Positions 1 to 59,988 of a stretch of 64,000 nucleotides of DNA are shown piece by piece; within the stretch, counting starts at the first letter, position 1, and each line of letters opens with the position of its first letter. Origin of the DNA: a virus. Position numbers and translations under genes: made by a program. The stretch lies in IMG/VR virus record IMGVR_UViG_3300042898_006838, positions 32,001 to 96,000 of that record; one strand, written 5' to 3'. Under the pieces are notes generated by a model, which made no database searches, was not told the DNA's origin, and was given only the letters and a program-made list of their open reading frames with translations.

Positions 1-1199
1 CGCTGCATACCGAAGCTGGTGGTGTCGCGAGGGAAGATGACGTTACATCGAGGGATGGCTGCGAACCTGGTGTCTGGAAGGCACAGGTACTGGGCCAGCA
101 GCGGCTTGGTCTCCAGACCCTCGTCGACGGTAGCAGCCTTGACTCCGCCGCTGACCGCGTCCAGGCGCACCAACTCGTCACGCAGCGACTGCAGCGTCTT
201 GACCAGTGAGTCAAGATTCTGATCTTCGATGTCGACGGTGGCGTCGGCAAAGGCCTGTTTTACGTCAGCGTCTATCTCACCGTTGCTGGTCTCGGACGTG
301 ATCGTGATCGACACCTGGTCCTCAACGCCGAGACCACCAGCCGACAGCACCTGCTTGATCTGGCTCTGGACCTCATCTGTAAACTTTCCTACCAGCTGAG
401 GAGCCGTAGGAGTCCCGTCCTCGACGAGGCGTGGCTGTGGATTGCAGATTATCTGGTACCGAAACACGGCCAGTGTGTTCTCGATGATCTGCATCAGCGA
501 CGTCTGACCGCTGACGCTGAGGACATCGTTTTTCATCACCGACAGCAGGTTTTCTCGACTCAGTAGCAGGTCAATGTTCTCATCTTTCGGCGACATCCAA
601 CGCGCGTCGAGGAGCAGGTTGGCATTGGCTTTGTTGAAGAAGACGTTTCCGTTCGGCTCCTTCATCGACTCGTTCATGACGTTGACGGCCACGGACTGAT
701 GGCTCTTGTCGCTGTTGGCGGCAAAGACTTGTTCGAGACGCGATGACAGGCTTGCACCTGACACGGGTGCGTCGATGCCCACGGACCCACTGTTGCCGAA
801 GAAGGCGTTGATGCGGGTGGCGGCAATAGGGGCCGGGAATCCGCCGCGGCTGGTGTCGTAGTAGTAGAGCTTCATCTGCTCCCAGTACGTGGAGTAGCCA
901 GCGCAATGGAATGACAGGTTCCTGCTCGACGGCGTCTTGGAGAAGCTGTCACCCACGATCTCGCCCTCGAAGAGCAGCGGCCAGTCGTCTTCGTCGTGGT
1001 TCTCGCGGATATCTAGGTCACTGTAGAAGACATGGACGCGCGCGCGCTTGAACCCCTCGTACTCGATTCCGGGCACAGGTGGGACGGTGAGGCTGGCCTC
1101 GGAGTTCTTGCTGTTGGATCCGCTGACGCTGACGGAGCTGACCTTGCTGACCAAGATACCTTCGATGAAGACGCGGAGCTGGATGTGGTCTGTTCTCAC
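1..1199 (-). CDS. Putative baseplate hub / tail-tip protein (runs off the left edge)
   Basis: Not in the ORF track because it has no stop in the window. Manual translation from a GTG overlapping the upstream stop gives MRTDHIQLRVFIEGILVSKV...WPLLFEGEIVG...; the same frame reads AIPRCNVIFP at the window edge. Position in the tail operon supports the call. Confidence 0.55.
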   Translation of the reverse strand, partial: MRTDHIQLRVFIEGILVSKVSSVSVSGSNSKNSEASLTVPPVPGIEYEGFKRARVHVFYSDLDIRENHDEDDWPLLFEGEIVGDSFSKTPSSRNLSFHCAGYSTYWEQMKLYYYDTSRGGFPAPIAATRINAFFGNSGSVGIDAPVSGASLSSRLEQVFAANSDKSHQSVAVNVMNESMKEPNGNVFFNKANANLLLDARWMSPKDENIDLLLSRENLLSVMKNDVLSVSGQTSLMQIIENTLAVFRYQIICNPQPRLVEDGTPTAPQLVGKFTDEVQSQIKQVLSAGGLGVEDQVSITITSETSNGEIDADVKQAFADATVDIEDQNLDSLVKTLQSLRDELVRLDAVSGGVKAATVDEGLETKPLLAQYLCLPDTRFAAIPRCNVIFPRDTTSFGMQ

Positions 1200-24735: not shown

Positions 24736-24995
24736 ACAGGTACCCGGCGCGGCAAGAACAGTGTGACCGAGAAGGCTGCCGTCCCGCGAGGCTGAGACCG
24801 GGAGCGACGGTGCGCGTGCAAGGAGTTGTCAACGGAGTCATCGGCCCGTTGGTCGAGGGACGCGTGTTGATCTCCAAGGCCAGCGATCTGGCCCCGGAAG
24901 TTGATGCGGTACTTGTGGCAACAAGAGAGTACGGTCGGCGTTGGTTTCACACCCGAGGCCACCCATTCCGAGTCGTTGAGGAGATCTGCGCATGA
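24732..24995 (+). CDS. Small hypothetical protein
   Basis: ATGA overlaps at both ends. Confidence 0.5.
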   Translation: MNRYPARQEQCDREGCRPARLRPGATVRVQGVVNGVIGPLVEGRVLISKASDLAPEVDAVLVATREYGRRWFHTRGHPFRVVEEICA

Positions 24996-27178
24996 CCAGC
25001 GAGAACGTGGCGCTTGAACGCCATACTTACGACGACCCGTTCCTGGACATGGCCTCGACGAAGCTGCCGAAGAGCTTCAAGAAGCTCATGGAGCTCTGCC
25101 AGATCTTCGCGCTCACGCACCCGCAGATCAGCCCCATCATCCAGCGCCTGGCCGAGTATCCGATCACCAGCCTCGTCTACAAAGGCGACCGTGAGAGTGA
25201 GCGTGTCCACAAGGACATCTTCGAGGTCAAGCTCCGGATCATGGAGAAGATGATCGAGTGGGGCCTGGACTACCACGCCTACGGAAACTGCTTCATCAGC
25301 ATCAGCTTCCCGTTCCTGCGCATGTACCGATGCCAGACCTGCAAGACCATCTACCAGAGCCGTGAGGTCAACTACCAGTACATCGGCGGCCGATTCCAGG
25401 GTCGATGCCGAAGCTGCGGCGGAGACCGAGAGTTCGATGCCATGGACCAGTACGTCAAGGACGCCAGCGGCATCAACCTCTTCCGCTTCGAGCCGCAGCT
25501 GATGACGCCGAAGTTCAACCGTGTCACCGGCCGCTACTTCTACTACTACGACATGCCTCCGGACCTGGTACGCAGCGTCGAGATCGGTGACAAGGACATC
25601 ATCGACAGCACGCCCGTCGAGTACCTGCGGTGCGTGAAGCTCAAGCGCAAGATGAAGCTCAAGCGCGTCTTCCACTTCAAGCGCCCGACACTCAGCGGCC
25701 GCGACATGCAGTGGGGTTTTCCGCTGGTGCTGCCAGCGCTGAAGGATGCCTACCTCAACCAGATCTACAAGAAGGCCGACGAGGCTATTGCCCTCGAACA
25801 CAGCGTGCCCCTGCGCGTGATCTTCCCGCAGCCGCAGACCAAAGACCCAATGCAGATGCTGGCGCTGGGCAACTTCAAGAACTTCATGGCCAAGAACATC
25901 AGGTACTGGCGCCAGGACAAGAACGCGATCATCACCGCGCCCATGCCCATCGGCAGCATGAACATCGGCGGCGACGCCCAGGCCTACAGCACCATCCAGG
26001 CGCGGGTGAAGGTCGTCGACGAGATCATCGGCGCGTGCATGGTCACCCGTGGCTTCGTGCTCGGCGGTGAGAACTGGTCAAGCGCCAGCATCAGCCAGCG
26101 GGTCATGGAGAACAGCTTCATGAACTACCTGCGTCGCATGGACGCCTGTCTGCAGTGGGTTCGTGACGAGGTTGGCGCGTACATGGGCCTGCCGCCGTGC
26201 GCCGTGTCGATGAAGCCATTCAAGAAGGTCGACGACGTGCAGATGCTGCAGCTGATAGTCGGCCTGGCCCAGCAGAAGCGTGTCAGCTGGCAGGAGACGC
26301 TTGGGCGACTGGACCTGGATAGCCGGGACGAGCTCGACGTCATCGAGAAGGAGGCCGTGCGCTACACCGAGCTCATGGTCCAGGAACTCATCGGCCAGAA
26401 CGAGGCCAGCTCCAAGGCTCTCGTGGCCCAGACCGTGGCCCAGGACCAGGCGGCTGGCGTTCAGGAGGTCCTGCAGGCCCAGGCCATGCGAGGTCAGGCC
26501 GTTGGTGCCGATGCCGCTGGGCAGATGAGCAAGGCCCAGTTCGAGGCTCAGCAGGCGGAGGTGGCAGCCAACACGCCGCCAGACCCGGCGTCGGCGGCAG
26601 CATCGGCTGAGGCCGAGAAGGACCAGGCCGTGGCCGAGAACTTCCGCGTCCGCAGTCAGCAGATGAGCGGGCAGCAGCCGGAGCAGCCGCAGGAGCAGAT
26701 GGTGGACGTGAACATGCAGCGTCAGATCCAGATGTGGGCCGGCGAGCTGCTGTCGATGTCCGGCGACGAGAAGCGTAAGCAGCTGCAGTACATGCACGAG
26801 CAGAACCCGGAGATCGCCCAGGCCGTGGTGGAGGTGGCCAGGGAGATGGAGCAGAGCGGTGGCGGTCAGCAGACCGCCGGTCCCGGTCCAGCTATCAGCA
26901 GGAGCCAGGACGCCAAGTCCATGACCGACGCCATCATGTCCCAGGTCAAGAGCCCAGATGAACTCGCTCAGCGCCTGTCCATGATCGATGCCCGGCAACA
27001 GTCAGCCGTGCTCCAGGAGATCCAACGCCGAAACCCTCAGCTCTTCATCAAGGTCATGCAGTTGATGAACGCCGAACGAGCCAAGGGGATGGAGTCCGGA
27101 GCCGGCCGTGGTAACGTGCCAGACAGCAAACCGCTTCCAGAACAGAAACCGCCGCAGCGCGAGGAGTCACCGGTATGA
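24992..27178 (+). CDS. Portal protein (putative) with a CxxC..CxxC insertion and a Gln-rich C-terminal extension
   Basis: DYHAYGNCFI, VFHFKRP, WGFPLV..AL are portal-like motifs; size and context fit. Confidence 0.75.
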   Translation: MTSENVALERHTYDDPFLDMASTKLPKSFKKLMELCQIFALTHPQISPIIQRLAEYPITSLVYKGDRESERVHKDIFEVKLRIMEKMIEWGLDYHAYGNCFISISFPFLRMYRCQTCKTIYQSREVNYQYIGGRFQGRCRSCGGDREFDAMDQYVKDASGINLFRFEPQLMTPKFNRVTGRYFYYYDMPPDLVRSVEIGDKDIIDSTPVEYLRCVKLKRKMKLKRVFHFKRPTLSGRDMQWGFPLVLPALKDAYLNQIYKKADEAIALEHSVPLRVIFPQPQTKDPMQMLALGNFKNFMAKNIRYWRQDKNAIITAPMPIGSMNIGGDAQAYSTIQARVKVVDEIIGACMVTRGFVLGGENWSSASISQRVMENSFMNYLRRMDACLQWVRDEVGAYMGLPPCAVSMKPFKKVDDVQMLQLIVGLAQQKRVSWQETLGRLDLDSRDELDVIEKEAVRYTELMVQELIGQNEASSKALVAQTVAQDQAAGVQEVLQAQAMRGQAVGADAAGQMSKAQFEAQQAEVAANTPPDPASAAASAEAEKDQAVAENFRVRSQQMSGQQPEQPQEQMVDVNMQRQIQMWAGELLSMSGDEKRKQLQYMHEQNPEIAQAVVEVAREMEQSGGGQQTAGPGPAISRSQDAKSMTDAIMSQVKSPDELAQRLSMIDARQQSAVLQEIQRRNPQLFIKVMQLMNAERAKGMESGAGRGNVPDSKPLPEQKPPQREESPV

Positions 27179-28888: not shown

Positions 28889-29653
28889 TCAGCTCAGAGG
28901 CGGCGTCGCGCGCTTGGCCTGCTCGGACATGGCCTTGGCAATGGCCTCTGACATCATGCTGATCTGCTCCTCGCGGCTGTACTGGCCCTTGAGATCCTCA
29001 AGGGTTCCGACCACGCGGTCGACCATGAGGAGCTTGCTGCTGCCGCTGTCGTAGCCGCGCTTGCGCAGGTCGGCGAGGTCGCCGCGGGCGTGGAGCTCAC
29101 GCGACAGGTTCGCCTTCGCCTCCTTGCGCATGTCCTTCTCTGCTCGTCCGGCCAGGAACACGACCACAGCCTCGTAAGCCGCCAGGTACGCGCCAGCCGC
29201 CGTGGCCAACGCGTCCTTCTTGCCGCTGCCGACGATGTCCTCGGCGTCAGCGGTGGCCATGGCCGCGGTGATGAGCCCGGCCTCGCGCTGGGCCACGACC
29301 GACATCATCGCCGACCAGACGTCGTCAGGCAGCCCCTCGGGACCGGCGCGGCGCTTGCCGTCGACGATCTTGGCCTTGAAGTCGGCCGTCGCCCGGGCCA
29401 GCATCTCAGCGCCGTTCAGGTGGCGGTCGGCAAAGCTCAGGACCTCCTGCCGCATCTCCATCAGCTCCCCGGCGCGAGGGTGGCGGCCGACGAAGGTTTC
29501 GGGCTTGCTGGCCCGGACCTTGTCGACGGCGTCGACGCGGTACGACGGCATGGCGCCGTCGACGGCGCGGTCGAAACGGCGCTTGGCCTTGGACTTGGAA
29601 TCGGTACCGATGATTTTGGCGCCGACGTGCTTGATCTTCTTGAACATACCCAT
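28889..29653 (-). CDS. Hypothetical protein (island 2)
   Basis: AAGGAG RBS before MGMFKKIK; helical 254 aa. Confidence 0.75.
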   Translation of the reverse strand: MGMFKKIKHVGAKIIGTDSKSKAKRRFDRAVDGAMPSYRVDAVDKVRASKPETFVGRHPRAGELMEMRQEVLSFADRHLNGAEMLARATADFKAKIVDGKRRAGPEGLPDDVWSAMMSVVAQREAGLITAAMATADAEDIVGSGKKDALATAAGAYLAAYEAVVVFLAGRAEKDMRKEAKANLSRELHARGDLADLRKRGYDSGSSKLLMVDRVVGTLEDLKGQYSREEQISMMSEAIAKAMSEQAKRATPPLS

Positions 29654-29736
29654 GACTGACTCCTTGACAGGCCCTGGGGTGTTAACCCTGGGCGGTGGAT
29701 GAGAGTGAGAACAGACCACCTGTTTCTCTCTCACCT

Positions 29737-29768
29737 CTGTTATGCCCGTGTCCTGACGCGATTTTCAC
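29737..29768 (-). promoter_or_regulatory. Island promoter-like motif, copy 2 (GTGAAAATCGC-N7-CACGGGCATAACAG)
   Basis: Nearly identical to the copy at 59957-59988. Confidence 0.7.
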
Positions 29769-29785: not shown

Positions 29786-32700
29786 ATGTACCAGCACGCC
29801 GAACGCACCTTCTCCGACGTCAAGCGAAACCTGGAGACCTACGTCCGGGGTCTGTTCCCCATCGAGGGCAAGAAGCGGACGCTGGTGCTCCGTGACCTGG
29901 AGATCAGGGACAACGCCGACCCAGGTGACTACGCCAGTCAGCGTCAGGCGCGCATGGCCGGCGAGAGCTGGAGCATCCCAGTCATCGCCGTCATGGAGCT
30001 GTTGGAAGGTGGCAAGGTCATCGACCGGGCGAAGATGAAGATCATCGACCTGCCGCGGCTGACCAACCGCGGTAGCTACATCGTCAACGGCACGGAGTTC
30101 ATGTTCCCGACGCAGAAGCGCCTGCGATCAGGACCCTACGTGCGCCTGGGCGAGAACGAGGAGCTGCGCACGTTCTTCAACGTCGCCAAGGGCCGCAGCT
30201 TCCACCTGGGTCTTCACCCGACCAAGGGCCACTTCCAGTTCCAGATCGAGAGTAGCAAAAACATCCCCCTGTACCCGCTGCTGCAGGTCCTGGGCGTCAG
30301 CGACGACGATATGGTCAGGGCCTGGGGCCGAGAGGTCTGGAAGGCCAACGTCGTCACCGACCCTGGTCAGCGAACCAAGGCGCTGCAGACCATCTACGAG
30401 AAGATGTCGTACGCACGAGATGATGTACCGGCTCCCACCGTCGAGCAGCTGCCTGATGCCATCAAGGCCATATTCTCAGCCACGGTTATCGACGGCGAGA
30501 ACACCGAGCTGACCATCGGTGAGCGTCACGACACAGTCAGTGGCCGGGCGGTGATGTTGGCGGCGGCGAAGATGTTGGGCGTGGCCCGAGGCGAGCGCGA
30601 GGAAGATAACCGCGACAGCCTCATCCACAACGACATCGTGGATCTTGGCGACTTCATCGTCGAACGCTTCCGAGACCCGCAGTTCCGAGGCCGCATCGTC
30701 AGGGCCGTGAAGTTCAACGTCGACCGTCGCGACAAGGTCAGCCAGATCATCAGCCGCGACAGCTTTCAGCGCCCGGTCGACAGCATGCTCACTGAGAGCC
30801 AACTGGCTCAGACCCCGAACCAGAACAATCCGCTGGGTATGATCAGCGACTACACACAGCTCACGGTCCGGGGCGAGGGTGGCATCCAGAACGACAACGC
30901 CCTGACACGCAGTGTCCGGGCCCTGGATCCCAGCCACCTGGGATTCATCGACCCCAGCCACACGCCCGAGGGCCAGGGCGTGGGCACGACCCTGCACCTG
31001 ACGACGAACACGGAGAAGCGTGGTCGCGACCTCGTGGCCCGTGTCATCGACGTCAAGACCGGCAAGGCCGTGGACCTCACTCCGGTACAGATCTTCAAGG
31101 CCACAGTCGCCTTCCCCGAGTCCTGGGACGGGAAGAAGCTCACGGGCCCGAAGGTCAAGGTCAGCCGACGCGGCGAGATCTCGAACGTGCCGGTGTCCGA
31201 GGCCCAGTACGTGTTCTCGAAGCCAGAGCACCTGATCGACGTCAACAGCGCCAGCATCCCCTTCCTCAGCCACAACAACGGCACGCGCGTGATGACGGCC
31301 AGCAAAATGGGCGCCCAGGCCAAGCCGCTGGAGACGCCGGAAGCGCCGTTGGTGCAGGTGGACAGCGGCGAGGGCACGACCGTCGAGGCCGTGGTCGGAG
31401 CCGCATTCTCACCGAAGTCTCCGGTCACCGGTATCGTGGAGAAGGTAGAGGAAGACGCGGTCATCATCTCCGGTCAGCGCGTGTCCATTCCCCGCCACTT
31501 CCCGTTGAACAGCAACAACTTCCTGCACGCACAGCCGACGGTGAAGGTCGGTGACAAGGTCTCCAAGGGCCAGGTCATCGCCGACACCAACTACACGGAC
31601 AAGGGCGTCATGGCCCTGGGGAAGAATCTGCTCGTGGCTTACACGCCCTACAAGGGCATGAACGTCGAAGACGGTGTGGTCATCAGCGAGACCGGCGCCA
31701 AGAAGATGACCAGCGAGCACATGTACCAGCAGCCGTACATGTTTGACGTCGACACGGTCATGGACCTGAAGAAGTTCCAGGCCTACTTCCCGGCCAAGAT
31801 CAAGAGTGCAGATGCCGAGAAACTCGACAGTCAGGGCGTGATCAAGAAGGGCCAGGTCGTCGGCCCCGGGTCCATCCTCGTCGCGGCCATGCGCAGGCAC
31901 GCGCCGACCACTGAGAGCCAGCGCCTGGCCGCTGTCAGCCGCATCCTGGCCAAAGAGTTCCGTGACGACAGCCTACGCTGGGAGAAGGACGTCACGGGCG
32001 TGGTTCAGGACGTGGCCAAGAGACCACGTGAGATCGTGGTCTTCGTGCGCACCAGCGAGGCCGCCCGTATCGGTGACAAGATCGCCGGTCGCTACGGCAA
32101 CAAGGGCATCATCGTGCACATCGTCGGCGACGCGGAGATGCCGCGTGACGCCAAGGGTCGGGTCCTGGACATGATGCTGAACCCAAACGGCGTCGTCAGC
32201 CGCATGAACATGGGTCAGATCATGGAGACGACGGCGAGTCGTATCAGCGAGAAGACGGGGAAGACGTTCGTGACCCGGGGCTTCGGCGAGGACAGCGCCA
32301 AGCGCATCGCCGCCGAACTCAAGGCCAACGGCCTCAAGGACCACGAGACCATCAGCGACCCCGTTGACGGCGCGGATATCCCCGGTGTGCTCGTCGGACG
32401 ACAGTACATCTATAAGCTCGAACACCAGGCGACGAAGAAGGTCGGGGCCCGGGGCATGGGCGCCGAGTACCCCTACGGCTACGAGGGGCAGGCTCCACGC
32501 GGAGCCCAGGGAGGACAGGCTATCGGCAGCATGGAGACCTACGCGCTCCTGGCCCATGGCGCGTTGTCCAATCTCCACGAGATGTACGGCGTGAAGAGCA
32601 GCTACGACTACGAGACCTGGAGAGCGCTGGAAAGCGGGGCTCCGCTGCCGCCTTCTAAGCCCAGCCACGCCTCGCAGAAGTTCCTGGCCATGCTCAAGGG

Positions 32701-35700
32701 TATGGGCGTCAACGTCGAGCAGCGCGGCAACGACATGGTGATGATGCCGTTCCTTGACCGGCACGTGAAAGAGATCAGCAACGGTGAAATCAGCAGCTTC
32801 CAGGTCCTGCGAGGCAAGGACTTGCGCGAGGAAAAGAACGGCCTATTCGACACGAAGAAGACGGGTGGCGTGCAAGGCGAGCAGTGGACGCACATCAAGC
32901 TTCCGGTGCCCATGCCGAACCCGACGTTCGCCAACGCCATCTTGAGCCTGCTGCACATGAGCCAGGAGGACTACGACGAGGTCCTGGCCGGCAAGAAGAA
33001 GATCGGCGGTCTCACGGGAGGCGAGGCCATCAAAGCCGAGTTGGCGAAGATCGACGTAGCCAAGCGCATCGCCGAAGTAGACCAGGAAATAAAGGGCAAG
33101 ACCGGTTCGTCACTGAACGCTCTGCACAAGGAGCTTCGGTTCCTGCGCGGGCTCAGGGAGACGGGGATCAAGCCCAGTGAGTACGTGATCTCGCTGCTCC
33201 CGGTCCTGCCGCCGAAGTTCCGTCCCGTGTACACGCTGCCCGACGGAAACCTTCGGATCAGCGACGTTAACTTCCACTACCAGAGCCTGCTGCAGCTCAA
33301 CGACCAGATGGGGAAGCTCAAAGGCCGCCAGTTCGATGACCAGCGCAAGGCCTTGGCATCCGAGATCTACAAGGCCGTCGGCGGCGTCACGGGCATGGGC
33401 GACGGTGTCGTCGAGCGGTCTCCGTCTCCCAAGGGCCTGGCGATGCAGATTGCCGGCGTCGGCAGTCCCAAGGGTGGATTCTTCCACTCCAGCCTGATGA
33501 AGAAGAGACAGGACGTGAGCGCCAGAAGCGTTATCGTCAGCAACCCGAGCCTGGGCCTGGACGAGGTCGGCGTTCCCGAGGCCGTGGCCTGGGACAGCTT
33601 CCGACCGTTCCTGATCAAGGAGCTGCGGAACATGGGTATGACCCCGCTTCAAGCCAAAGCAGCCGCCGACGCTCGTGGCGACGTGGCTAAGCGGGCCCTG
33701 GAAAACGTGATGAAGGATCGTCACGTCATTCTCAACCGCGCGCCGACCCTGCACAAGTTCAGCGTCATGGCCTTCAAGCCTCGACTGGTCCCTGGCTACG
33801 CGATTCAGATCCCGCCCCTGGTCGTCGGCGGCTTCAACGCCGACTTCGACGGCGACACCATGGCCATGCACGTGCCGGTCAGCGCCGAAGCCAACGCCGA
33901 GGCCGCGAAGATGTTGCCCAGTGCCAACCTCTACAAGCCCGGTAGCGGGAAGATGCAGCACAAGATCGAGCACGAGTACGTCCTGGGTCTGTTCAAGATC
34001 TCGCGTCCGGGAACCGTGTCGACGAAGAGGTACACGTCGACGGCCCAGGTGCTCAGCGACCTGCGCGCTAAGTCAGTGGCCCCTGATGCCGTAATCAGCG
34101 TCAGTGGCATCGGCAGCACCACACCCGGCCGCGTGCTCATCAACGACGTGTTCCCGGCTCGTCACCGAGACTACGGCCTGATCTTCAGCGACAAGGTCAT
34201 CCAGGCCAAGTTGACGGAGATCGACAAAGGCAGCGGTCGCGACGTTTTCGTGAAGTGCCTGCAGGCTCTGGCTGACATCGGCCGACGCTATGCCTACAGC
34301 ACGGGCAGCAGCTTCCTGCTCAGCGACTTGCAGACCATGGGCAAGGAGCGCAACGCCGCCTATCGCACGGCCGACGCCGCGGCCGACCGCGTTCGCAGTG
34401 GCCCGGGTAGCGACGATGACAAGAAGAAGAAGATCATCGACATCTACATGCGCGTTGGCGCCAAGCTGCAGTCGGAGATGAGGCTGGGCAACAACAGCAG
34501 CGGCCAGAGCAACAACATCAACGACATGATGACCGCCGGCGCGCGAGGCAACCCAGATCAGATCCGGCAGCTGGTTGGCAGCGTGGGTGTGATGCTCGAT
34601 CACAACAACAAGCCTATGCCAGAGCCAGTCCGCGGCACGTACACTGACGGCCTGACTACGAGCGAGTTCTTTGCCCACATGTACGGCAACCGTAAGGGCA
34701 TGATCGATAAGAGCCAGAGCGTGAAGGACCCAGGTGCGCTGACCAAGCAGGTCGTGGTCAGCGCCGCCGGCTACCGCGTCTCCAGCCTCGACTGTGGGAC
34801 GATGTCTGGCGTCTCTGAGTCCTGCGACGGGGTCAACGCCCTGGACCGCTGTTCGGCTGAGAACGTGCCTGGTCTGGTCAAGCGCAATGACTTCGTGACG
34901 TCCAAGGTCCTGGCCGCTTTCCGTGCCCGTGGCGTCAAGACCATCAAGATCAGGAGTCCGTTGACCTGCATAGCCGCCAGTGGCGTCTGTGTCCGATGTT
35001 ACGGTCTGGACGAAGAAGGTCAGGCGCCGGCTATCGGCGCCCACGTCGGAATCAAGGACACCCAGGGCCTCACAGAACCCAGCACGCAGTTGGCGATGAA
35101 GACATTTCACACTGGCGGTGTGGCCACGGGCAAGGCCAGTCTGACCACGGGCTTTGACCGCGTGAAGAAGCTGTTCACGATGCCGGATACCGTTCGCGAC
35201 AAGGCCACGATGGCCGAGGTCAGCGGGCGCGTGGAGTCCGTGGCCCCAAATCCGTTTGGCGGCACGATCGTGGTCGTAGCCGGAACCAAGCACCGCCTGG
35301 CCACGGGCCGCAAGGCCAGCGTCGTCGTCGGCGACCAGGTGACCAGGGGTCAGAAGATCAGCGACGGTGACATCCAGCCCCAGGACATGCTGCGTCTCAA
35401 CGGTTTGCGGGCAATGCAGCTTCAGCTCCGTGACGACATCGGCAGCGTCTACGCACAGGGCGGTGAGCGCCTGCACGCCAAGACCATCGAGGTGCCGGTG
35501 CGCATGCTCACGGAGAGCGTGAGAATCAACGACGCCGGAGACCACCCGAGCCTGGTGCCCGGCGACTACAGCACCTACGGCCGCGTCGACGACTGGAACC
35601 GTGGCCACCCTGGCAAGAAGCCTGTGAAGTACCTTCACATCCTGCCCGGCAGTGAGTACCTTCCGCATCGCAGCGACGACTGGGCCCAGCGCATGGCCCA

Positions 35701-35845
35701 CAACCGCGTCCAGCAGGTGCTGCAGGAAGCGCCGGCAATGGCAGCCAAGGCTCCGCTGTCCGGTGGCAGTCCCTTCGCCTCCCTGGCTTTCGGCAAACGG
35801 GTCGCGCAAGATCCATGGCGTTCAGGAGGATTGACCAGTGGCTGA
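29786..35845 (+). CDS. rpoBC: Fused DNA-directed RNA polymerase beta-beta' (single 2019-aa chain)
   Basis: beta motifs: GSYIVNG, SQLAQ..NQNNPL, GMNVEDG, GDKIAGRYGNKG, SRMNMGQ, GSMETYAL. beta' motifs: VLPP..RP, LNRAPTLH, NADFDGD (33836-33856), RSPLTC..VC..CYG, EPSTQLAMKTFH. Confidence 0.97.
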   Translation: MYQHAERTFSDVKRNLETYVRGLFPIEGKKRTLVLRDLEIRDNADPGDYASQRQARMAGESWSIPVIAVMELLEGGKVIDRAKMKIIDLPRLTNRGSYIVNGTEFMFPTQKRLRSGPYVRLGENEELRTFFNVAKGRSFHLGLHPTKGHFQFQIESSKNIPLYPLLQVLGVSDDDMVRAWGREVWKANVVTDPGQRTKALQTIYEKMSYARDDVPAPTVEQLPDAIKAIFSATVIDGENTELTIGERHDTVSGRAVMLAAAKMLGVARGEREEDNRDSLIHNDIVDLGDFIVERFRDPQFRGRIVRAVKFNVDRRDKVSQIISRDSFQRPVDSMLTESQLAQTPNQNNPLGMISDYTQLTVRGEGGIQNDNALTRSVRALDPSHLGFIDPSHTPEGQGVGTTLHLTTNTEKRGRDLVARVIDVKTGKAVDLTPVQIFKATVAFPESWDGKKLTGPKVKVSRRGEISNVPVSEAQYVFSKPEHLIDVNSASIPFLSHNNGTRVMTASKMGAQAKPLETPEAPLVQVDSGEGTTVEAVVGAAFSPKSPVTGIVEKVEEDAVIISGQRVSIPRHFPLNSNNFLHAQPTVKVGDKVSKGQVIADTNYTDKGVMALGKNLLVAYTPYKGMNVEDGVVISETGAKKMTSEHMYQQPYMFDVDTVMDLKKFQAYFPAKIKSADAEKLDSQGVIKKGQVVGPGSILVAAMRRHAPTTESQRLAAVSRILAKEFRDDSLRWEKDVTGVVQDVAKRPREIVVFVRTSEAARIGDKIAGRYGNKGIIVHIVGDAEMPRDAKGRVLDMMLNPNGVVSRMNMGQIMETTASRISEKTGKTFVTRGFGEDSAKRIAAELKANGLKDHETISDPVDGADIPGVLVGRQYIYKLEHQATKKVGARGMGAEYPYGYEGQAPRGAQGGQAIGSMETYALLAHGALSNLHEMYGVKSSYDYETWRALESGAPLPPSKPSHASQKFLAMLKGMGVNVEQRGNDMVMMPFLDRHVKEISNGEISSFQVLRGKDLREEKNGLFDTKKTGGVQGEQWTHIKLPVPMPNPTFANAILSLLHMSQEDYDEVLAGKKKIGGLTGGEAIKAELAKIDVAKRIAEVDQEIKGKTGSSLNALHKELRFLRGLRETGIKPSEYVISLLPVLPPKFRPVYTLPDGNLRISDVNFHYQSLLQLNDQMGKLKGRQFDDQRKALASEIYKAVGGVTGMGDGVVERSPSPKGLAMQIAGVGSPKGGFFHSSLMKKRQDVSARSVIVSNPSLGLDEVGVPEAVAWDSFRPFLIKELRNMGMTPLQAKAAADARGDVAKRALENVMKDRHVILNRAPTLHKFSVMAFKPRLVPGYAIQIPPLVVGGFNADFDGDTMAMHVPVSAEANAEAAKMLPSANLYKPGSGKMQHKIEHEYVLGLFKISRPGTVSTKRYTSTAQVLSDLRAKSVAPDAVISVSGIGSTTPGRVLINDVFPARHRDYGLIFSDKVIQAKLTEIDKGSGRDVFVKCLQALADIGRRYAYSTGSSFLLSDLQTMGKERNAAYRTADAAADRVRSGPGSDDDKKKKIIDIYMRVGAKLQSEMRLGNNSSGQSNNINDMMTAGARGNPDQIRQLVGSVGVMLDHNNKPMPEPVRGTYTDGLTTSEFFAHMYGNRKGMIDKSQSVKDPGALTKQVVVSAAGYRVSSLDCGTMSGVSESCDGVNALDRCSAENVPGLVKRNDFVTSKVLAAFRARGVKTIKIRSPLTCIAASGVCVRCYGLDEEGQAPAIGAHVGIKDTQGLTEPSTQLAMKTFHTGGVATGKASLTTGFDRVKKLFTMPDTVRDKATMAEVSGRVESVAPNPFGGTIVVVAGTKHRLATGRKASVVVGDQVTRGQKISDGDIQPQDMLRLNGLRAMQLQLRDDIGSVYAQGGERLHAKTIEVPVRMLTESVRINDAGDHPSLVPGDYSTYGRVDDWNRGHPGKKPVKYLHILPGSEYLPHRSDDWAQRMAHNRVQQVLQEAPAMAAKAPLSGGSPFASLAFGKRVAQDPWRSGGLTSG

Positions 35846-37193: not shown

Positions 37194-38852
37194 ATGTGGA
37201 CCGACGAGGACGGGCGTGTGCACACCACGCCCAGCAACCTCGTGGCCAATCGCGTGAACATCAAGCCCGGCGTGCCATACAGCTTCGCCGACCGCCCGTT
37301 CATGACCCAGGTCTTCGACGACCCGTTCCCAGCCATCGGCTTGATGACGGCTCGGCAGATCAGCAAGTCCACGTTCCTGGCCGCTGATGCACTGGCAAGC
37401 TGTGAGGCCCTGTCGCCGTACACGGTCATGGTCCTGACTCCGAGCCAGGATCAGACGCGGAAGTTCAGCTACGACCGCCTGGGGCCCACGATTGCCAGTT
37501 CCCCGGCCGTGCGCTCGATGATGAGTGCCGAGAGCCTGGACAACGTCTTCGAGAAGAGCTTTGTCAACGGCAGCAAGATCTACCTCAGCTACGCCAAGGA
37601 GAACGCCGACCGCGTCCGCGGTATCAGCGCCGACCAGATCGACTACGACGAGATTCAGGACATGCACCTGAAGGCCGTCGAGGCCGTGACCAGGGAGTCT
37701 TTGTTCACCAGCCGCTACAAGCGCCGGCGCTACGGCGGCACGCCCAAGAGCTTCAGCAACGGCATCGAGCAGCGGGTCTGGAGGCAGAGCGACAGGCGCG
37801 AGTGGATGGTGCGCTGCCGTCACCACGCACCCATCTACCACCAGAAGCTGACGAAGAGGAACGTGGGCGTCAGCGGCCCGATCTGTGACCGCTGCGGCAA
37901 GAGCCTGTTCACGCTCGACGGCCTCTGGGTCTCGACGTCGTCGCTGACGCCAGACGGCAAGGTGCCGAGGATCCACGGCTACCACATCCCGCAGATCATC
38001 TTCCCGACCACTGACGTCGAGGTTGCCCCCGGCATCCGCGGATTCCTGGACTGGGGCTCGTTCAAGGACGAGATCGAGGACCCGAACACCGATGAGGCGA
38101 CAAAGCTCAACGAAAAGTGGGGTGAAAGCGCGGACAGCGAAGAGCGACCGGTGAAGGAGGACGAGCTCCGCGGCGCCTGCGTCGACGAGAGATCCATGCC
38201 ACAGGTCTGGCAGGAGTGGATGAAGGGCGAGTACTTGTTCGCGGGCCTGGACTGGGGAACGGGTCTGCAGTCGGCTACGGTCCTGACTATCGGCCAATTC
38301 GACCCCCGGGACCCGAAGATATTCCGCTACGTCTACGCCAAGCGCTACTTCGGGCGCGACGCCGACCCCAAGATCTGCGTTCCCGACATCCTGCGCAAGC
38401 TCCAGGACTTCCGAGTCTTCCGGGCCCACGCCGACTTCGGCAGCGGCCTGGGTCTGAACAGCCAGATCGAGGAGGCACGTGGCGAAGAGTTCCTGACCAC
38501 GAACTACTGGAGCAGCAGCATCGGCGGCAAGCGAGTGATCTACGACCCGGATCTCAGGCGCTACGTCCTGAACCGGAGCCTGCACATCACCCGCTTCTTC
38601 CAGGGACTGAAGAAGCGGAGCCTGCGCGTGGCCTTTGGCTGGCCAGACTTCCGCGTCTTCGCCGAGGACATCCTCCACGTCTTCCGCGAGGAGCGGAAGA
38701 ACGGCGACCCCTACTACGACCACAAGCCCGAGGAGCCGGACGACGCCATGCACGCCATGATCTACACCTGGCTCATCGCCAGCTTCCACCGCTACCGCAA
38801 CGAGGGCGTGGAGGTGGCGCGGACCACGCACGACCCGCAGTCCGGAGGCTAA
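37194..38852 (+). CDS. terL: Terminase large subunit
   Basis: ARQISKST Walker A, RGISAD..DYDE Walker B, GTPK motif, AGLDWG and PDDAMHA nuclease motifs. Confidence 0.9.
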   Translation: MWTDEDGRVHTTPSNLVANRVNIKPGVPYSFADRPFMTQVFDDPFPAIGLMTARQISKSTFLAADALASCEALSPYTVMVLTPSQDQTRKFSYDRLGPTIASSPAVRSMMSAESLDNVFEKSFVNGSKIYLSYAKENADRVRGISADQIDYDEIQDMHLKAVEAVTRESLFTSRYKRRRYGGTPKSFSNGIEQRVWRQSDRREWMVRCRHHAPIYHQKLTKRNVGVSGPICDRCGKSLFTLDGLWVSTSSLTPDGKVPRIHGYHIPQIIFPTTDVEVAPGIRGFLDWGSFKDEIEDPNTDEATKLNEKWGESADSEERPVKEDELRGACVDERSMPQVWQEWMKGEYLFAGLDWGTGLQSATVLTIGQFDPRDPKIFRYVYAKRYFGRDADPKICVPDILRKLQDFRVFRAHADFGSGLGLNSQIEEARGEEFLTTNYWSSSIGGKRVIYDPDLRRYVLNRSLHITRFFQGLKKRSLRVAFGWPDFRVFAEDILHVFREERKNGDPYYDHKPEEPDDAMHAMIYTWLIASFHRYRNEGVEVARTTHDPQSGG

Positions 38853-39303: not shown

Positions 39304-39314
39304 CTGTTATGCCC
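39304..39314 (-). promoter_or_regulatory. Island promoter-like motif, copy 3 (GGGCATAACAG; upstream box degenerate)
   Basis: 11-nt identity to the downstream half of copies 2 and 4. Confidence 0.6.
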
Positions 39315-40796
39315 TCAGCCGCCACCGTATTCCGGGACCGCGGACATGAACTGCTTGTTCAGATCGCTCTTCTCCCGACGACGCTCGTCGATCCATTGGT
39401 CAGGGCTCATCGGCGGCTTGGTCCTGAAGACCTTGTTGACCAGGGACTTGTTGTGAGCGGTCATGTAGCGCCGGACCTCTACGTTCCTCTCGTCCTCGGG
39501 AAGGTGGGCGTGACTGCGGAATCTGGCACTGCGGCCCACGGCCTGGTTGCCGCGTTCCGGGTTCCAGTGCTCTTCGGTCAGCTGCACCATCCGCACGCCC
39601 TTGAGATCCAGGCCCTCGCCGCCGGCGGGACTGAGGCCGAGAACACGCAGGCGTCCGGCGTTGAAGTCAGCCACCATCTGCCGGCGCTGAGCGTCGTTGA
39701 GGCTGCCGGTGAAGGCCGCGGACGGGATCTTTCGCCTGTTGAGCTCGTCGATCAGCGGCTGGACTCCGCTCTCGATGAAGTTGCTGTAGATCACGGTCTT
39801 GAAGGCCTTGTTGCCCGCAGACTGGCTGACGATGTCGTCGAGCATGGCCTTGAACTTCGGAGACTCCATGGCCTTGGTGGTGTAGAGGCTGGGGTTGTTG
39901 CTGATCTGGCGAGCCGCGGCCATGAAGCTGTTCATGTTCTTCAGGTCCTTCTTGCTCGGCGGCAGGTTGTTCTTGAGCTTGTAGGCCAGGACCGGATTCT
40001 TCGAGCTCAGAGCCTTCATCATCTGCTCTTGGCCCGGTGACATGGGCACGGTCACCACCGACTCACTGACCGTCGGAAGCTCTCGCTGGTAGGCCTCGTT
40101 TCCCGAGAAGCGGTGGACGACTGGCGACAGCTTGGCGCCAAGCCCGGCCTTGTTCTTCAGGCTCTCTTCGACTCCAGGCTTAACGCCACTGAGCCGTCCC
40201 CAGAGACTGACTGGTATCTGCTTCTCGTCGATGTGCTGGCGCTTGAAGTCCTCGATGCTCTCGAACACGGGCTTGCCGGCAGCCAGGTTCACCAGCGGCA
40301 CGATCTCCTCGGGCCGGTTGTTTATCATGCTGCCGGTGAGGCCGAGCATGAACTTCACCTTGCCGCGCACTTTGTCGAAGGCTTCGCGGGGCCCGGGGTT
40401 GCGTAGACGGTGGAACTCGTCGGCGATGATCGTCGTAGGCCGAGCCCGAGCAACCCAGCCCTCGGGATCGCGGCGAAACTCGTCGTAGCTGATGACCGTG
40501 TACGCGCCATGTCGCAGCGGGCTCACGTGATCTCGCAGCTGGCCCTGGAAGTTCTCACGCAATGCCGCCGGCGTCACGACCAGGACGTTGCCGCCCTTGG
40601 CCTCGGCGACGGCGATGGAGCCCAGGGTCTTGCCGCTACCCAGTCCCCAGTTCAGGACCATGCCCGATGACGTCGCCGAACGCGCCACGGCATCGGCCTG
40701 GTGCGGCTGCAGCTTGACGCTCGGGTTCAGGGCCGCGGTCTTGGTCAGCGCCGCCCGTGCTCGTGACGTGAACTCAGCAGCTGTCTTCGACGTCAT
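39315..40796 (-). CDS. SNF2-family (SF2) helicase/ATPase with a KTA-KTA N-terminal leader
   Basis: GLGSGKT, ADEFH, LTGS, GGEGLDL, WNP...QAVGRSAR. Confidence 0.9.
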   Translation of the reverse strand: MTSKTAAEFTSRARAALTKTAALNPSVKLQPHQADAVARSATSSGMVLNWGLGSGKTLGSIAVAEAKGGNVLVVTPAALRENFQGQLRDHVSPLRHGAYTVISYDEFRRDPEGWVARARPTTIIADEFHRLRNPGPREAFDKVRGKVKFMLGLTGSMINNRPEEIVPLVNLAAGKPVFESIEDFKRQHIDEKQIPVSLWGRLSGVKPGVEESLKNKAGLGAKLSPVVHRFSGNEAYQRELPTVSESVVTVPMSPGQEQMMKALSSKNPVLAYKLKNNLPPSKKDLKNMNSFMAAARQISNNPSLYTTKAMESPKFKAMLDDIVSQSAGNKAFKTVIYSNFIESGVQPLIDELNRRKIPSAAFTGSLNDAQRRQMVADFNAGRLRVLGLSPAGGEGLDLKGVRMVQLTEEHWNPERGNQAVGRSARFRSHAHLPEDERNVEVRRYMTAHNKSLVNKVFRTKPPMSPDQWIDERRREKSDLNKQFMSAVPEYGGG

Positions 40797-59503: not shown

Positions 59504-59941
59504 TCAGTACCAGCCGGAGCGGTTGCTGGCGCGCCGGGCCGCGCGAGCCTCGGCCTCTTCGTCCTCGCGGCGAGCGCTGTCCAGATCATCCGCCATCCGC
59601 TGCCTGTGCTTGGGCAGCTGCCAGCACTCCTTGCAGACGACCAGAGCTTTGTCGCCCTGGGCGGCGTAGAAGTCGTACCACTCCCATTCCCAAGTCTCGC
59701 TGCGCGGCTTGGTCGTGGAGCAATCTCGACAGACTACCTTCTCCTCACCCTCCGACCGCCGGTGCTGTTCAGCACACGAGGCGCACATGGCGCACCCGTC
59801 TCCGTCGAGCTCGCTGCGGCAGAAGCTGTCTACTTCGATCCGCGCGATCACCAGCGGTTCGTGGCCGCAGGTGCCAACGGTCCCACGAGCGACGAGGGCT
59901 TCGATGTCCTTCTTATAAGTCTTCGTGACGAACCAGTTCAT
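59504..59941 (-). CDS. Cys-rich (multiple CxxC) hypothetical protein (island 4)
   Basis: GGAGGTG RBS; CGH, CASC, CRDC, CKEC. Confidence 0.75.
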   Translation of the reverse strand: MNWFVTKTYKKDIEALVARGTVGTCGHEPLVIARIEVDSFCRSELDGDGCAMCASCAEQHRRSEGEEKVVCRDCSTTKPRSETWEWEWYDFYAAQGDKALVVCKECWQLPKHRQRMADDLDSARREDEEAEARAARRASNRSGWY

Positions 59942-59956
59942 ATCTCACCTCCACGA

Positions 59957-59988
59957 CTGTTATGCCCGTGGAGGCGAGCGATCTTCAC
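59957..59988 (-). promoter_or_regulatory. Island promoter-like motif, copy 4 (GTGAAGATCGC-N7-CACGGGCATAACAG)
   Basis: Nearly identical to copy 2. Confidence 0.7.

What the first reader, a model, noticed from the sequence alone, without database searches (positions are those of the whole stretch)
29786..35845. Compact single-chain beta-beta' RNA polymerase inside the virion morphogenesis cluster
Seen: every core bacterial beta and beta' motif occurs in order in one 2019-aa ORF, with an intact NADFDGD, bridge helix (GNRKGMIDKS) and trigger loop (EPSTQLAMKTFH). The beta C terminus (QKFLAMLKGMGVNVEQ) joins the beta' start through only a few residues near 32720. It is roughly 700 aa shorter than E. 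coli beta plus beta'. No alpha, omega or sigma gene is visible in the window. Established: rpoBC fusions occur in Helicobacter and Wolbachia, whereas phiKZ-like phage RNAPs are split and highly diverged. Inference: a streamlined, still clearly bacterial-like phage RNAP; whether it borrows host alpha or sigma is open.
Basis: partly seen in the sequence, partly recalled or inferred. Interest (0 to 1): 0.85.

Follow-up and report, generated by a model that had tools for sequence, protein, structure and literature searches.

The report
Single-chain phage RNA polymerase with own sigma
An uncultured 156-kb tailed phage encodes the two large subunits of a bacterial-type RNA polymerase as one 2019-residue protein between its portal and terminase genes. 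It also encodes its own sigma factor, and hundreds of related phages share this compact two-protein set, which has not been studied biochemically.

Summary
Window 29786-35845 (+) is one uninterrupted 2019-aa ORF with bacterial beta domains followed by beta' domains, and all catalytic motifs are intact. It is not an assembly artefact: more than 100 independent metagenomic proteins (35-75% identity) and at least 80 IMG/VR contigs carry the same fused gene.

The fused gene lies downstream of the portal gene in 65 of 80 relatives and upstream of the large terminase in 47 of 80. In a tree, the phage clade sits on a long branch apart from 19 sampled bacterial lineages. Its sister group contains the cultured Salmonella phage Arash and Vibrio phage D69. 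These keep the beta::beta' junction fused but split beta' further downstream.

The size deficit against E. coli is mostly the absence of E. coli-specific insertions. Real losses are the beta' zinc-binding domain and the terminal tails.

New here: the genome encodes a sigma70-family factor 1.7 kb outside the window, and 9 of 10 large relatives have one too. No alpha or omega gene was found. A stereotyped promoter-like motif (GAAAtt-N13-GGGCATAAC) recurs 11 times upstream of genes.

Best reading: a host-independent holoenzyme of fused core plus phage sigma, probably carried in the virion, as Arash proteomics suggests. I class it as a new variant of a known kind, interest about 0.62. The first-stage scan also noted the zinc-domain deletion on this same DNA.

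The parts
29786..35845 (+). Fused beta-beta' RNA polymerase ORF, 2019 aa (P0001)
   Evidence: 100% self-match with no internal stops
29786..32722 (+). beta module (residues 1-979): protrusion, lobe, fork, SBHM/flap, beta double-psi beta-barrel, C-terminal clamp piece
   Evidence: Pfam Rpb2_3/_6/_7. The AF2 model of residues 1-620 (pLDDT 89.7) superposes on bacterial beta with TMq 0.76-0.81
30785..30892 (+). Rifampicin-pocket cluster I equivalent (residues 334-369), with substitutions at the D516, H526, R529, S531 and L533 equivalents
   Evidence: MAFFT alignment to Salmonella RpoB; the link to rifampicin resistance is inference from known E. coli mutations
32063..32125 (+). beta double-psi beta-barrel active-site lysine motif GDK..GRYGNKG (residues 760-780)
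   Evidence: invariant across 18 family members
32723..32755 (+). beta::beta' junction (residues 980-990), a short structured connector
   Evidence: Conserved in the family (P988 invariant). AF2 pLDDT 89-96 across the junction, modelled as a beta-hairpin. DNA is clean
32879..32884 (+). Site where the beta' zinc-binding domain (E. coli beta' 69-100, four Cys) is missing
   Evidence: 32-residue gap in all family rows against Salmonella, Bacillus and Pelotomaculum
33257..33412 (+). beta' clamp helices (residues 1158-1209), the predicted docking site of the phage sigma
   Evidence: Alignment to beta' 260-309; predicted interface
33836..33856 (+). Catalytic NADFDGD (residues 1351-1357)
   Evidence: also the commonest intein insertion point in relatives
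34655..34771 (+). Bridge helix (residues 1624-1662)
35036..35176 (+). Trigger loop without SI3 (residues 1751 to about 1797)
24992..27178 (+). Portal protein gene, conserved upstream neighbour
   Evidence: blastp to Arash gp204 (7.7e-68) and D69 gp259 (1.5e-80); upstream on the same strand in 65 of 80 related loci
37194..38852 (+). Large terminase subunit gene, conserved downstream neighbour
   Evidence: phrog_675 4.3e-44 and PF05876; downstream in 47 of 80 related loci
39315..40796 (-). SNF2-family helicase, homologue of Arash gp217 (encoded next to Arash beta'C and detected in virions)
29739..29746 (-). Promoter-like motif GGCATAAC (core of GAAAtt-N13-GGGCATAAC) in the 51-bp gap next to the RNAP start, facing the divergent gene 28889-29734
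   Evidence: conserved at the syntenic place in relative L004
39306..39313 (-). Second copy of the promoter-like motif
59959..59966 (-). Third copy of the promoter-like motif, upstream of gene 59504-59941

Best explanation
The ORF encodes a catalytically competent, bacterial-type RNA polymerase core in which beta and beta' are one polypeptide. The covalent link, a short structured connector, probably replaces the assembly role that the alpha dimer plays in bacteria. The core pairs with a phage-encoded 229-aa sigma70-family factor (regions 2-4), whose gene lies in the neighbouring structural block just outside the window. This gives a two-polypeptide holoenzyme that reads phage-specific bipartite promoters, for which GAAAtt-N16-CATAAC is a candidate. 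It would transcribe phage genes without the host core enzyme, and probably without sensitivity to rifampicin. Both genes sit in late/structural modules, and their homologues are abundant in purified Arash virions. The enzyme is therefore probably packaged in the capsid and delivered with the DNA to start early transcription. Shown: the gene, its motifs, its fold, its conservation, its synteny, and the presence of the sigma gene. Inferred: sigma-core pairing, independence from alpha, promoter assignment, rifampicin insensitivity and virion delivery.
For: Intact ORF and motifs. High-confidence bacterial-type folds for residues 1-620 and 846-1400, running through the junction. More than 100 full-length fused homologues at 35-75% identity, and at least 80 IMG/VR contigs with a contiguous roughly 6-kb match. 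Inteins sit in 31 of 120 relatives, at the catalytic DFDGD|T and trigger-loop FH|T sites among others, as expected for an essential active enzyme. The phage clade is separated from 19 bacterial lineages by a branch of about 1.5 substitutions per site with support 100. No cellular genome holds a copy above 32% identity. Sigma: P0122 is homologous to Arash gp10 (4.8e-14). A profile of 60 homologues matches SigA/RpoS/RpoD regions 2-4 at about 1e-21 over positions 5-229. 57 of 60 members hit Sigma70_r3. The sigma profile is found in 9 of 10 large related genomes, including Arash and D69. Complex prediction of sigma with residues 986-1450 scored 0.64 against a best control of 0.00. That mark was reached by 58 of 80 solved complexes and 2 of 110 mismatched pairs. 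The runs agree in at least 31% of contacts and the partner pLDDT is at least 69. The interface is core 1158-1209 (clamp helices) with sigma 42-57. Sigma with the clamp helices is a textbook pair, so this pass shows likeness to solved holoenzymes, not that these copies bind. No alpha or omega gene in the genome. Only one RNAP copy in the genome. Promoter-like motif: 3 copies in the window against 0.38 expected, reached by 0 of 100 shuffles. There are 11 copies in the genome, 9 of them in gaps between called genes and 7 followed within about 30 nt by a GGAG- or GAGAG-like ribosome-binding site and a start codon. The motif is conserved in the 74%-identical relative. Portal-RNAP-TerL synteny is conserved. 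In Arash virion mass spectrometry, gp206 (beta-beta'N) had the most spectra (3516), with gp216 at 1210, sigma gp10 at 467 and helicase gp217 at 1148 (PMC10585845).
Against: There is no experimental data for this phage. Virion association rests on one proteome of a 30%-identical relative in which 116 proteins were detected, including reductases and ligases, so carry-over of abundant cytoplasmic proteins is possible. The complex prediction cannot tell binding to the phage core from binding to the host core. The promoter-like motif has only 11 copies and could be read by the host holoenzyme. Loss of the beta' zinc-binding domain removes a surface that contacts sigma and DNA in bacterial holoenzymes, so initiation may differ from the bacterial scheme. 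Use of host alpha cannot be excluded by sequence. One of 10 large relatives (91% complete) lacked a sigma hit.
Confidence: 0.6

Rival explanations
1. The enzyme is a non-virion polymerase. The fused RNAP and sigma are made during infection and transcribe middle or late genes inside the cell. Early genes are read by host RNAP, and the Arash virion signal is contamination.
For: The Arash particle proteome lists 116 proteins, including clearly cytoplasmic enzymes. Only one RNAP set is present in the genome, whereas phiKZ-like phages that inject an RNAP also carry a second, non-virion set (PMC7598289).
Against: The RNAP gene lies between portal and terminase in nearly all relatives, and sigma lies among large structural genes next to an M23 peptidase protein. 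An enzyme needed to switch on middle genes would be expected in an early operon. Arash gp206 has more spectra than the major capsid protein.
Confidence: 0.25
2. The two proteins are uncoupled. The phage sigma redirects the host core enzyme, as T4 gp55 or SPO1 gp28 do. The fused RNAP then initiates with another, unrecognised phage factor or without any factor, as in phiKZ/AR9, where a non-sigma subunit recognises promoters.
For: RNAP-less jumbo phages commonly encode sigma factors thought to act on host core (PMC13282480). The beta' zinc-binding domain, part of the bacterial sigma/promoter interface, is deleted.
Against: Sigma co-occurs with this RNAP in 9 of 10 relatives and in both cultured sister phages. 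The clamp helices are retained and predicted to take sigma region 2.2 in the canonical way (with the caveat of likeness to solved complexes). The flap-tip region is retained.
Confidence: 0.12
3. The fusion is an artefact, or the stretch is cellular DNA: a mis-assembled or frameshift-masked pair of genes, or a bacterial rpoBC operon on a mis-binned contig.
Against: The same junction is conserved with invariant residues in more than 100 independent assemblies. Portal, terminase and tail genes flank it. It is 27-32% identical to any cellular enzyme and lies outside all sampled bacteria.
Confidence: 0.01

Closest known systems
Salmonella phage Arash gp206 + gp216, and Vibrio phages D69/D148/D181 (cultured, RNAP not studied biochemically)
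   Same: Same clade: sister group with support 100. About 30% identity over 89% of the length. Same fused beta::beta' junction, same portal-small gene-RNAP order, same sigma (gp10) and SNF2 helicase (gp217) partners.
   Different: Their beta' is split after the catalytic domain into beta-beta'N (about 1525 aa) and beta'C (about 606 aa), with several genes in between. Here the whole of beta' is in one chain. The Arash paper annotates gp206 simply as 'beta subunit' and does not note the fusion.
mReC, multisubunit-RNAP-encoding Caudovirales (Weinheimer & Aylward 2020, PMC7481178)
   Same: Uncultured tailed phages from many environments with beta/beta' still recognisable by cellular-family HMMs, branching apart from Bacteria.
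   Different: Every mReC entry in parts 9-12 of that paper's Supplementary Data 2, the parts I read, has beta and beta' as two separate ORFs (about 1000+900 aa or about 1360+1005 aa), and some contigs carry two sets. No fused entry appears among the non-mReC rows seen either. The paper mentions no sigma. I could not obtain mReC sequences, so the phylogenetic relation is untested.
Natural bacterial rpoBC fusions (Helicobacter, Wolbachia; also a Paceibacterota MAG seen here)
   Same: Beta C-terminus joined to beta' N-terminus in one chain. This works because the two ends lie together in the clamp (established knowledge).
   Different: Those fusions nest inside their own bacterial lineages: Wolbachia with Proteobacteria, Paceibacterota with Parcubacteria. 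They are 2281-2839 aa and work with alpha, omega and host sigma. Helicobacter itself was not sampled here.
phiKZ / AR9 jumbo-phage multisubunit RNAPs
   Same: Phage-encoded two-barrel RNAPs lacking alpha and omega. One set is virion-delivered. Reported as rifampicin-resistant (established knowledge; PMC7598289).
   Different: There beta and beta' are each split into two or three polypeptides and are very divergent, and promoter recognition uses a non-sigma70 subunit (gp68, gp226). Here the arrangement is the opposite (fully fused), there is clear sequence homology to bacterial subunits, and a bona fide sigma70-family factor is present.
crAss-like phage virion RNAP (phi14:2 gp66) and YonO
   Same: Single-chain two-barrel RNAPs of phages; the crAss-like enzyme is virion-packaged (bioRxiv 10.1101/2020.03.07.982082).
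   Different: Those share only the catalytic barrels with cellular enzymes, and no homology is detectable with beta/beta' HMMs. This protein has the full bacterial domain set.

Membership tests
Bacterial-type (beta/beta') two-barrel RNA polymerase core | beta double-psi beta-barrel with the conserved lysines (GDK..GR[HY]GNKG) | tested here: met
   Residues 760-780, invariant in the family; PF00562 1.1e-53
Bacterial-type (beta/beta') two-barrel RNA polymerase core | beta' NADFDGD Mg-binding loop, bridge helix and trigger loop | tested here: met
   1351-1357, 1624-1662 and 1751 to about 1797; PF00623 3.4e-31 and PF04998 2.8e-21
Bacterial-type (beta/beta') two-barrel RNA polymerase core | Bacterial fold of the beta lobe/protrusion and the beta' clamp | tested here: met
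   AF2 models with pLDDT 88.7 and 89.7; Foldseek E 4e-43 and 3e-31 to bacterial chains C and D, TMq 0.62-0.81
Bacterial-type (beta/beta') two-barrel RNA polymerase core | beta' N-terminal zinc-binding domain (four Cys) | tested here: not met
   32-residue deletion, no Cys, in all family members; the second Zn site is retained
Bacterial-type (beta/beta') two-barrel RNA polymerase core | Accompanied by alpha and omega subunits | tested here: not met
   PF01000 and PF01193 give no hit. PF01192 gives only E 0.016, on the strand opposite to a called gene. Use of host alpha is not testable here
mReC clade (Weinheimer & Aylward 2020) | Tailed-phage contig with beta and beta' detectable by cellular-family HMMs | tested here: met
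   Portal, TerL and tail fibre present; Pfam Rpb1/Rpb2 domains over cut-off. The COG0085/COG0086 HMMs themselves were not run
mReC clade (Weinheimer & Aylward 2020) | Groups with the mReC sequences in an RNAP tree | not tested
   mReC sequences could not be fetched. Short beta- or beta'-only candidates turned out to be fragments, beta-beta'N forms or bacterial proteins
mReC clade (Weinheimer & Aylward 2020) | beta and beta' as separate ORFs (as in every mReC entry read) | tested here: not met
   Single ORF here; all mReC rows read list two ORFs
Lineage-internal bacterial rpoBC fusion (Wolbachia/Helicobacter type) | Nests within a bacterial phylum | tested here: not met
   The phage clade is one side of a 100-supported branch apart from all 19 bacteria, including Wolbachia and a fused Paceibacterota gene
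phiKZ/AR9-type phage multisubunit RNAP | beta and beta' each split into several polypeptides, with no sigma70-family factor | tested here: not met
   One polypeptide; own sigma70-family gene. Only weak PHROG hits (1e-24 or weaker) to the 'RNA polymerase beta subunit' PHROGs (phrog_3295 and others), which I take to be the phiKZ-type families
Sigma70 family (for the partner P0122) | Regions 2, 3 and 4 in order | tested here: met
   Profile of 60 homologues against PDB sigma factors, E about 1e-21 over positions 5-229 of 233. Sigma70_r3 in 57 of 60 members, r4 in 16, r2 in 5. P0122 alone is below Pfam cut-offs

The most novel reading that the evidence does not exclude
This is a minimal, self-assembling bacterial-type holoenzyme made of only two polypeptides: a single-chain beta-beta' without the zinc-binding domain, alpha or omega, plus a 229-aa sigma. 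It is packaged in the capsid and injected to run a host-independent, rifampicin-insensitive transcription programme. The fusion is ancestral to a deep-branching clade of hundreds of 150-200-kb phages.
Probability: 0.4. Interest if true: 0.8.

Novelty: new variant of a known kind. Interest (0 to 1): 0.62.

Why it matters
Phage-encoded multisubunit-type RNAPs are known in two forms. One is fragmented and very divergent, without sigma (phiKZ/AR9). The other is single-chain and barely recognisable (crAss, YonO). This clade is a third solution: the full bacterial domain set in one chain, paired with a true sigma70-family factor and no alpha or omega.

If the two proteins suffice for promoter-specific transcription, they would be the smallest bacterial-type holoenzyme known. 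That would be a natural test of what alpha, omega and the beta' zinc domain are needed for. It would also be a compact system for structural work and orthogonal expression.

The clade is abundant, with at least 519 IMG/VR stretches. It has cultured members (Arash and the Vibrio D69 group), so the predictions are directly testable. The long separate branch also bears on the debate about ancient versus acquired phage RNAPs.

Tried and rejected

(2) I tried to link the gene to the published mReC set. One protein (P0089) has a longest contig whose length nearly equals that of a listed mReC contig, which suggested a match. The paper lists two separate ORFs on that contig, so there is no match.

(3) Searches for split beta-only or beta'-only relatives gave no usable sequences. 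The beta-only candidates were gene-call fragments, beta-beta'N forms or intein-bearing forms. The roughly 900-aa beta' candidates were bacterial fragments. P0283 is a bacterial RpoB.

(4) Direct Pfam Sigma70_r2 and r4 scans of the genome found nothing. The sigma was found only through Arash gp10 and a family profile.

(5) Nucleotide search of cultured phages found no close relative.

(6) PHROG and Pfam left most neighbouring genes unnamed.

(7) The weak omega hit (E 0.016, wrong strand) was rejected.

(8) The 'moraphage' paper was checked and is irrelevant, because those phages lack an RNAP.

(9) MAFFT misaligned the C-terminal half of the trigger loop against E. coli SI3. I read it by eye from the translation instead.


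Full report
OBSERVATION. Window 29786-35845 (+) is one open frame of 2019 codons. The ATG follows a GAGG ribosome-binding site. Pfam places RNA_pol_Rpb2 domains 3, 6 and 7 at residues 344-939. RNA_pol_Rpb1 domains 1, 2, 4 and 5 follow at 1113-1799, with E-values down to 1e-53. An alignment with Salmonella RpoB+RpoC and five family members shows the key motifs in place:
- the beta active-site lysine motif at 760-780;
- NADFDGD at 1351-1357;
- the second zinc site;
- the bridge helix at 1624-1662;
- a trigger loop from 1751 that lacks the SI3 insertion.
Homology to the beta' N terminus begins about ten residues later. The DNA there has no stop codon or homopolymer run.

NOT AN ARTEFACT, AND NOT ALONE. 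The window is bases 32001-96000 of a 155,932-bp IMG/VR virus record estimated to be 96% complete. That record holds a single RNAP copy.
- A search of 5.8 billion proteins returned more than 100 full-length relatives of 2000-2110 aa. They show 35-75% identity and 99-100% coverage, on contigs up to 199 kb.
- A scan of IMG/VR found at least 519 stretches encoding relatives. The best 80 all give a contiguous match of about 6 kb over residues 1 to about 2010.
- The junction region is conserved across 18 diverse members, with invariant residues P988, G1000, G1019 and the TGG at 1026-1028.
- An AlphaFold2 model of residues 846-1400 (pLDDT 88.7, pTM 0.84) runs through the junction at pLDDT 89-96, where it is modelled as a beta-hairpin. 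The model superposes on bacterial beta' N-terminal halves.
- A model of residues 1-620 (pLDDT 89.7) superposes on bacterial beta with TMq 0.76-0.81. The lobe and protrusion, which Pfam missed, are therefore present.
- 31 of the 120 listed relatives are longer because of insertions of 340-530 aa that carry intein and homing-endonuclease Pfam families. Most sit exactly after the last Asp of NADFDGD (about residue 1357) or inside the trigger-loop FH|TGG (about 1775). Selfish elements target such sites in essential, active genes.

WHAT 'COMPACT' MEANS. The protein is 730 aa shorter than the enterobacterial beta plus beta'. The large gaps are beta 240-358 (SI1), beta 934-1037 (SI2), beta 1136-1206 and beta' 944-1186 (SI3 and part of the jaw). 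By established knowledge these are lineage-specific insertions. Against compact bacterial enzymes in my sample it lacks about 360-430 residues (Pelotomaculum 2315 aa, Bacillus 2382 aa). The largest gaps are:
- a short beta N-terminal piece;
- part of the beta lobe;
- the beta C-terminal tail at the junction;
- the beta' zinc-binding domain, a 32-residue gap with all four cysteines gone in every family member;
- a 31-residue segment of the beta' N-terminal region (Bacillus beta' 137-167);
- the beta' C-terminal tail.
The first-stage scan noted the zinc-domain deletion independently on this DNA (e1-5837636). I confirm it.

WHERE IT BELONGS. No nucleotide-level relative exists among cultured phages. 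At protein level the nearest cultured phages are Vibrio phages D69, D148 and D181 and Salmonella phage Arash, at about 30% identity. In these phages one ORF of about 1525 aa covers beta plus the N-terminal part of beta' through the catalytic domain. A second ORF of about 606 aa covers the rest of beta'. Metagenomic loci L168-L171 show the same beta-beta'N architecture, some with inteins.

In 185,579 bacterial and archaeal species genomes the best matches are ordinary rpoB-rpoC operons at 27-32% identity. No prophage copy was found.

A FastTree analysis used 43 sequences and 1998 columns.
- All 24 phage sequences fall on one side of a branch with support 100. That branch is about 1.5 substitutions per site away from 19 bacterial lineages. 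These include CPR bacteria and two natural bacterial fusions (Wolbachia and a Paceibacterota MAG).
- The fully fused proteins form one group (support 98). The Arash/D69/L169 group is its sister (support 100).
- The beta::beta' fusion is therefore shared by the whole clade. The extra split in beta' distinguishes the sister group.
This tree has no outgroup beyond Bacteria and uses FastTree only, so the depth of the branch should not be over-read.

RELATION TO THE PUBLISHED mReC. Weinheimer & Aylward (2020, PMC7481178) described 97 metagenomic Caudovirales contigs with cellular-like beta and beta' that branch apart from cells. In the parts of their Supplementary Data 2 that I read, every mReC row lists two different ORFs. 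The sizes are about 1000+900 aa or about 1360+1005 aa, and some contigs carry both sets. The non-mReC list I saw also has no single-ORF row. The text speaks of fusion only for crAssphage. Their pipeline apparently needed two proteins per contig. I could not retrieve mReC sequences, so the question stays open. The fused clade could lie inside mReC, beside it, or apart from it.

Reviews of jumbo-phage RNAPs do not describe a fused bacterial-type phage RNAP with its own sigma (PMC7598289, PMC7824862, PMC13282480). Two targeted literature searches found none either. The held library is incomplete, so this is absence of evidence only.

PARTNERS. Direct Pfam scans of the genome for Sigma70_r2 and r4, for the alpha N-terminal domains and for omega were negative. 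The single omega hit (E 0.016) lies on the wrong strand.

Arash gp10 is annotated as a sigma factor. It has a homologue at genome 29633-30322 (-), which is 1.7-2.4 kb left of window base 1 (P0122, 229 aa; blastp 4.8e-14).
- Alone, P0122 reaches only Sigma70_r3 at E 0.0018.
- It has 960 relatives in a 1.84-billion-protein library.
- A profile of 60 of these matches SigA, RpoS and RpoD over regions 2-4 at E about 1e-21, covering positions 5-229 of 233.
- 57 of the 60 members hit Sigma70_r3, 16 hit r4 and 5 hit r2.
- The same profile finds a gene in 9 of 10 large related genomes, including Arash and D69.
- As in Arash, the sigma gene sits in a block of large structural genes, next to a cell-wall hydrolase. 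Here that is a 957-aa protein with an M23 peptidase domain.

A complex prediction of the sigma with residues 986-1450 of the core scored 0.64, against 0.00 for the best of three controls. That mark was reached by 58 of 80 solved complexes and 2 of 110 mismatched pairs. The runs agree in at least 31% of contacts, and the partner pLDDT is at least 69. The interface joins core residues 1158-1209, which align with the bacterial clamp helices, to sigma residues 42-57. This is the textbook sigma-2 to clamp-helix contact. The pass therefore shows that the likeness to solved holoenzymes is preserved. It does not show that these two proteins bind, or that the sigma prefers the phage core over the host core.

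An SNF2-family helicase at 39315-40796 (-) is the homologue of Arash gp217 (2.9e-79). In Arash, gp217 is encoded next to beta'C.

GENOMIC SETTING. The upstream 728-aa ORF (24992-27178) is the portal, matching Arash gp204 at 7.7e-68 and D69 gp259 at 1.5e-80. The ORF at 37194-38852 is the large terminase. Among the 80 related loci, a portal homologue lies upstream on the same strand in 65, at a median distance of 2.1 kb. A terminase homologue lies downstream in 47, at a median of 6.8 kb. Only 54 loci have at least 6 kb of upstream flank and 64 have at least 6 kb downstream. The placement is thus a conserved trait of the clade, not a peculiarity of this contig.

A CANDIDATE PROMOTER. K-mer enrichment in gene-upstream regions singled out GGGCATAAC. 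The core GGCATAAC occurs 11 times in the genome. Nine copies lie in gaps between my called genes and two fall inside called ORFs. Seven are followed within about 30 nt by a GGAG- or GAGAG-like ribosome-binding site and an ATG or GTG. Ten of the 11 are on the minus strand. An A-rich GAAAtt-like element lies 13 nt upstream, which is 16 nt from CATAAC and so sigma70-like spacing. Three copies lie in the window against 0.38 expected, and 0 of 100 shuffles reach three. One copy sits in the 51-bp gap beside the RNAP start, facing the divergent gene. The 74%-identical relative L004 has the motif at the same place. Which polymerase reads this motif is not known.

MECHANISM PROPOSED. I read the system as a two-polypeptide holoenzyme. 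The covalent link between beta and beta' guarantees 1:1 stoichiometry. By analogy with alpha-less phage RNAPs and with functional bacterial and engineered fusions (established knowledge), it probably makes the alpha platform dispensable. The phage sigma supplies promoter recognition.

The rifampicin pocket carries substitutions at the equivalents of D516 (N), H526 (D), R529 (Q), S531 (T) and L533 (R). Several of these positions give resistance when mutated in E. coli (established knowledge; inference for this enzyme). I therefore predict rifampicin-insensitive phage transcription.

Virion delivery is the least secure step. It rests on the late/structural position of both genes. It also rests on the Arash virion proteome. 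There gp206 gave the most spectra of any protein (3516), followed among these partners by gp216 (1210), gp217 (1148) and gp10 (467). However, 116 proteins were detected in that preparation (PMC10585845).

I put about 0.6 on the composite reading, about 0.25 on a non-virion role, and about 0.12 on an uncoupled sigma. An artefact is essentially excluded.

VERDICT. It is a new architectural variant of phage-encoded multisubunit-type RNAP. It is widespread, has cultured relatives and has not been studied biochemically. It is not categorically new. Phage RNAPs of cellular type, virion RNAPs and rpoBC fusions are all known. Public annotations already call these proteins beta/beta'. Interest 0.62.

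Noticed in passing
genome 29633-30322 (-), i.e. 1.7-2.4 kb left of window base 1; L006:13634-14323:-: A 229-aa sigma70-family factor (P0122), homologous to Arash gp10. It lies next to a 957-aa M23-peptidase protein that overlaps the left window edge (3..1199, -). The gene is conserved in 9 of 10 large relatives.
   Followed up: yes
relatives P0004-P0121; equivalent to window about 33854-33859 and about 35108-35113: 31 of 120 homologues carry 340-530-aa intein or homing-endonuclease insertions. Recurrent sites are after the last Asp of NADFDGD and inside the trigger-loop FH|TGG. Rarer sites are near residues 396-417, 604 and 945.
   Followed up: partly
window 29739-29746, 39306-39313, 59959-59966 (all -), plus 8 more in the genome: A stereotyped bipartite promoter-like motif, GAAAtt-N13-GGGCATAAC, lies just upstream of ribosome-binding sites. 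It is enriched about 8-fold over chance and conserved in relative L004 at 9959 (-) and 3466 (-).
   Followed up: partly
L152:172-7017 (+), Candidatus Paceibacterota MAG contig DATJQA010000074.1: A 2281-aa fused rpoBC ORF that groups with Parcubacteria, not with the phage clade. This is an apparently independent beta-beta' fusion in a CPR bacterium.
   Followed up: partly
window 42003-44525 (-): An 840-aa protein of no known family. Homologues occur within 10 kb of the RNAP gene in 61 of 80 related loci, so it is a conserved core gene of the clade with unknown role.
   Followed up: no
window 39315-40796 (-): An SNF2-family helicase homologous to Arash gp217. In Arash that gene lies next to the beta'C gene and its product gave 1148 spectra in virions. 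It may be a RapA-like transcription partner.
   Followed up: partly
G003:C1:50783-51481 (record behind L057), and L177:7326-8000: The sigma homologue of one 205-kb relative has one in-frame TGA. In L177 the RNAP match starts about 675 nt upstream of the first start codon in the same frame. Both hint at stop-codon recoding or sequencing errors in some relatives.
   Followed up: no
window 30785-30892 (+): The rifampicin-binding pocket equivalents are substituted (D516N, H526D, R529Q, S531T, L533R) and vary across the family, which predicts insensitivity to rifamycins.
   Followed up: partly
window 1-64000: No tRNA genes in the window. GC is uniformly 60-67%. Most large neighbouring ORFs have no PHROG or Pfam family, so this is a very poorly charted phage lineage.
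   Followed up: partly
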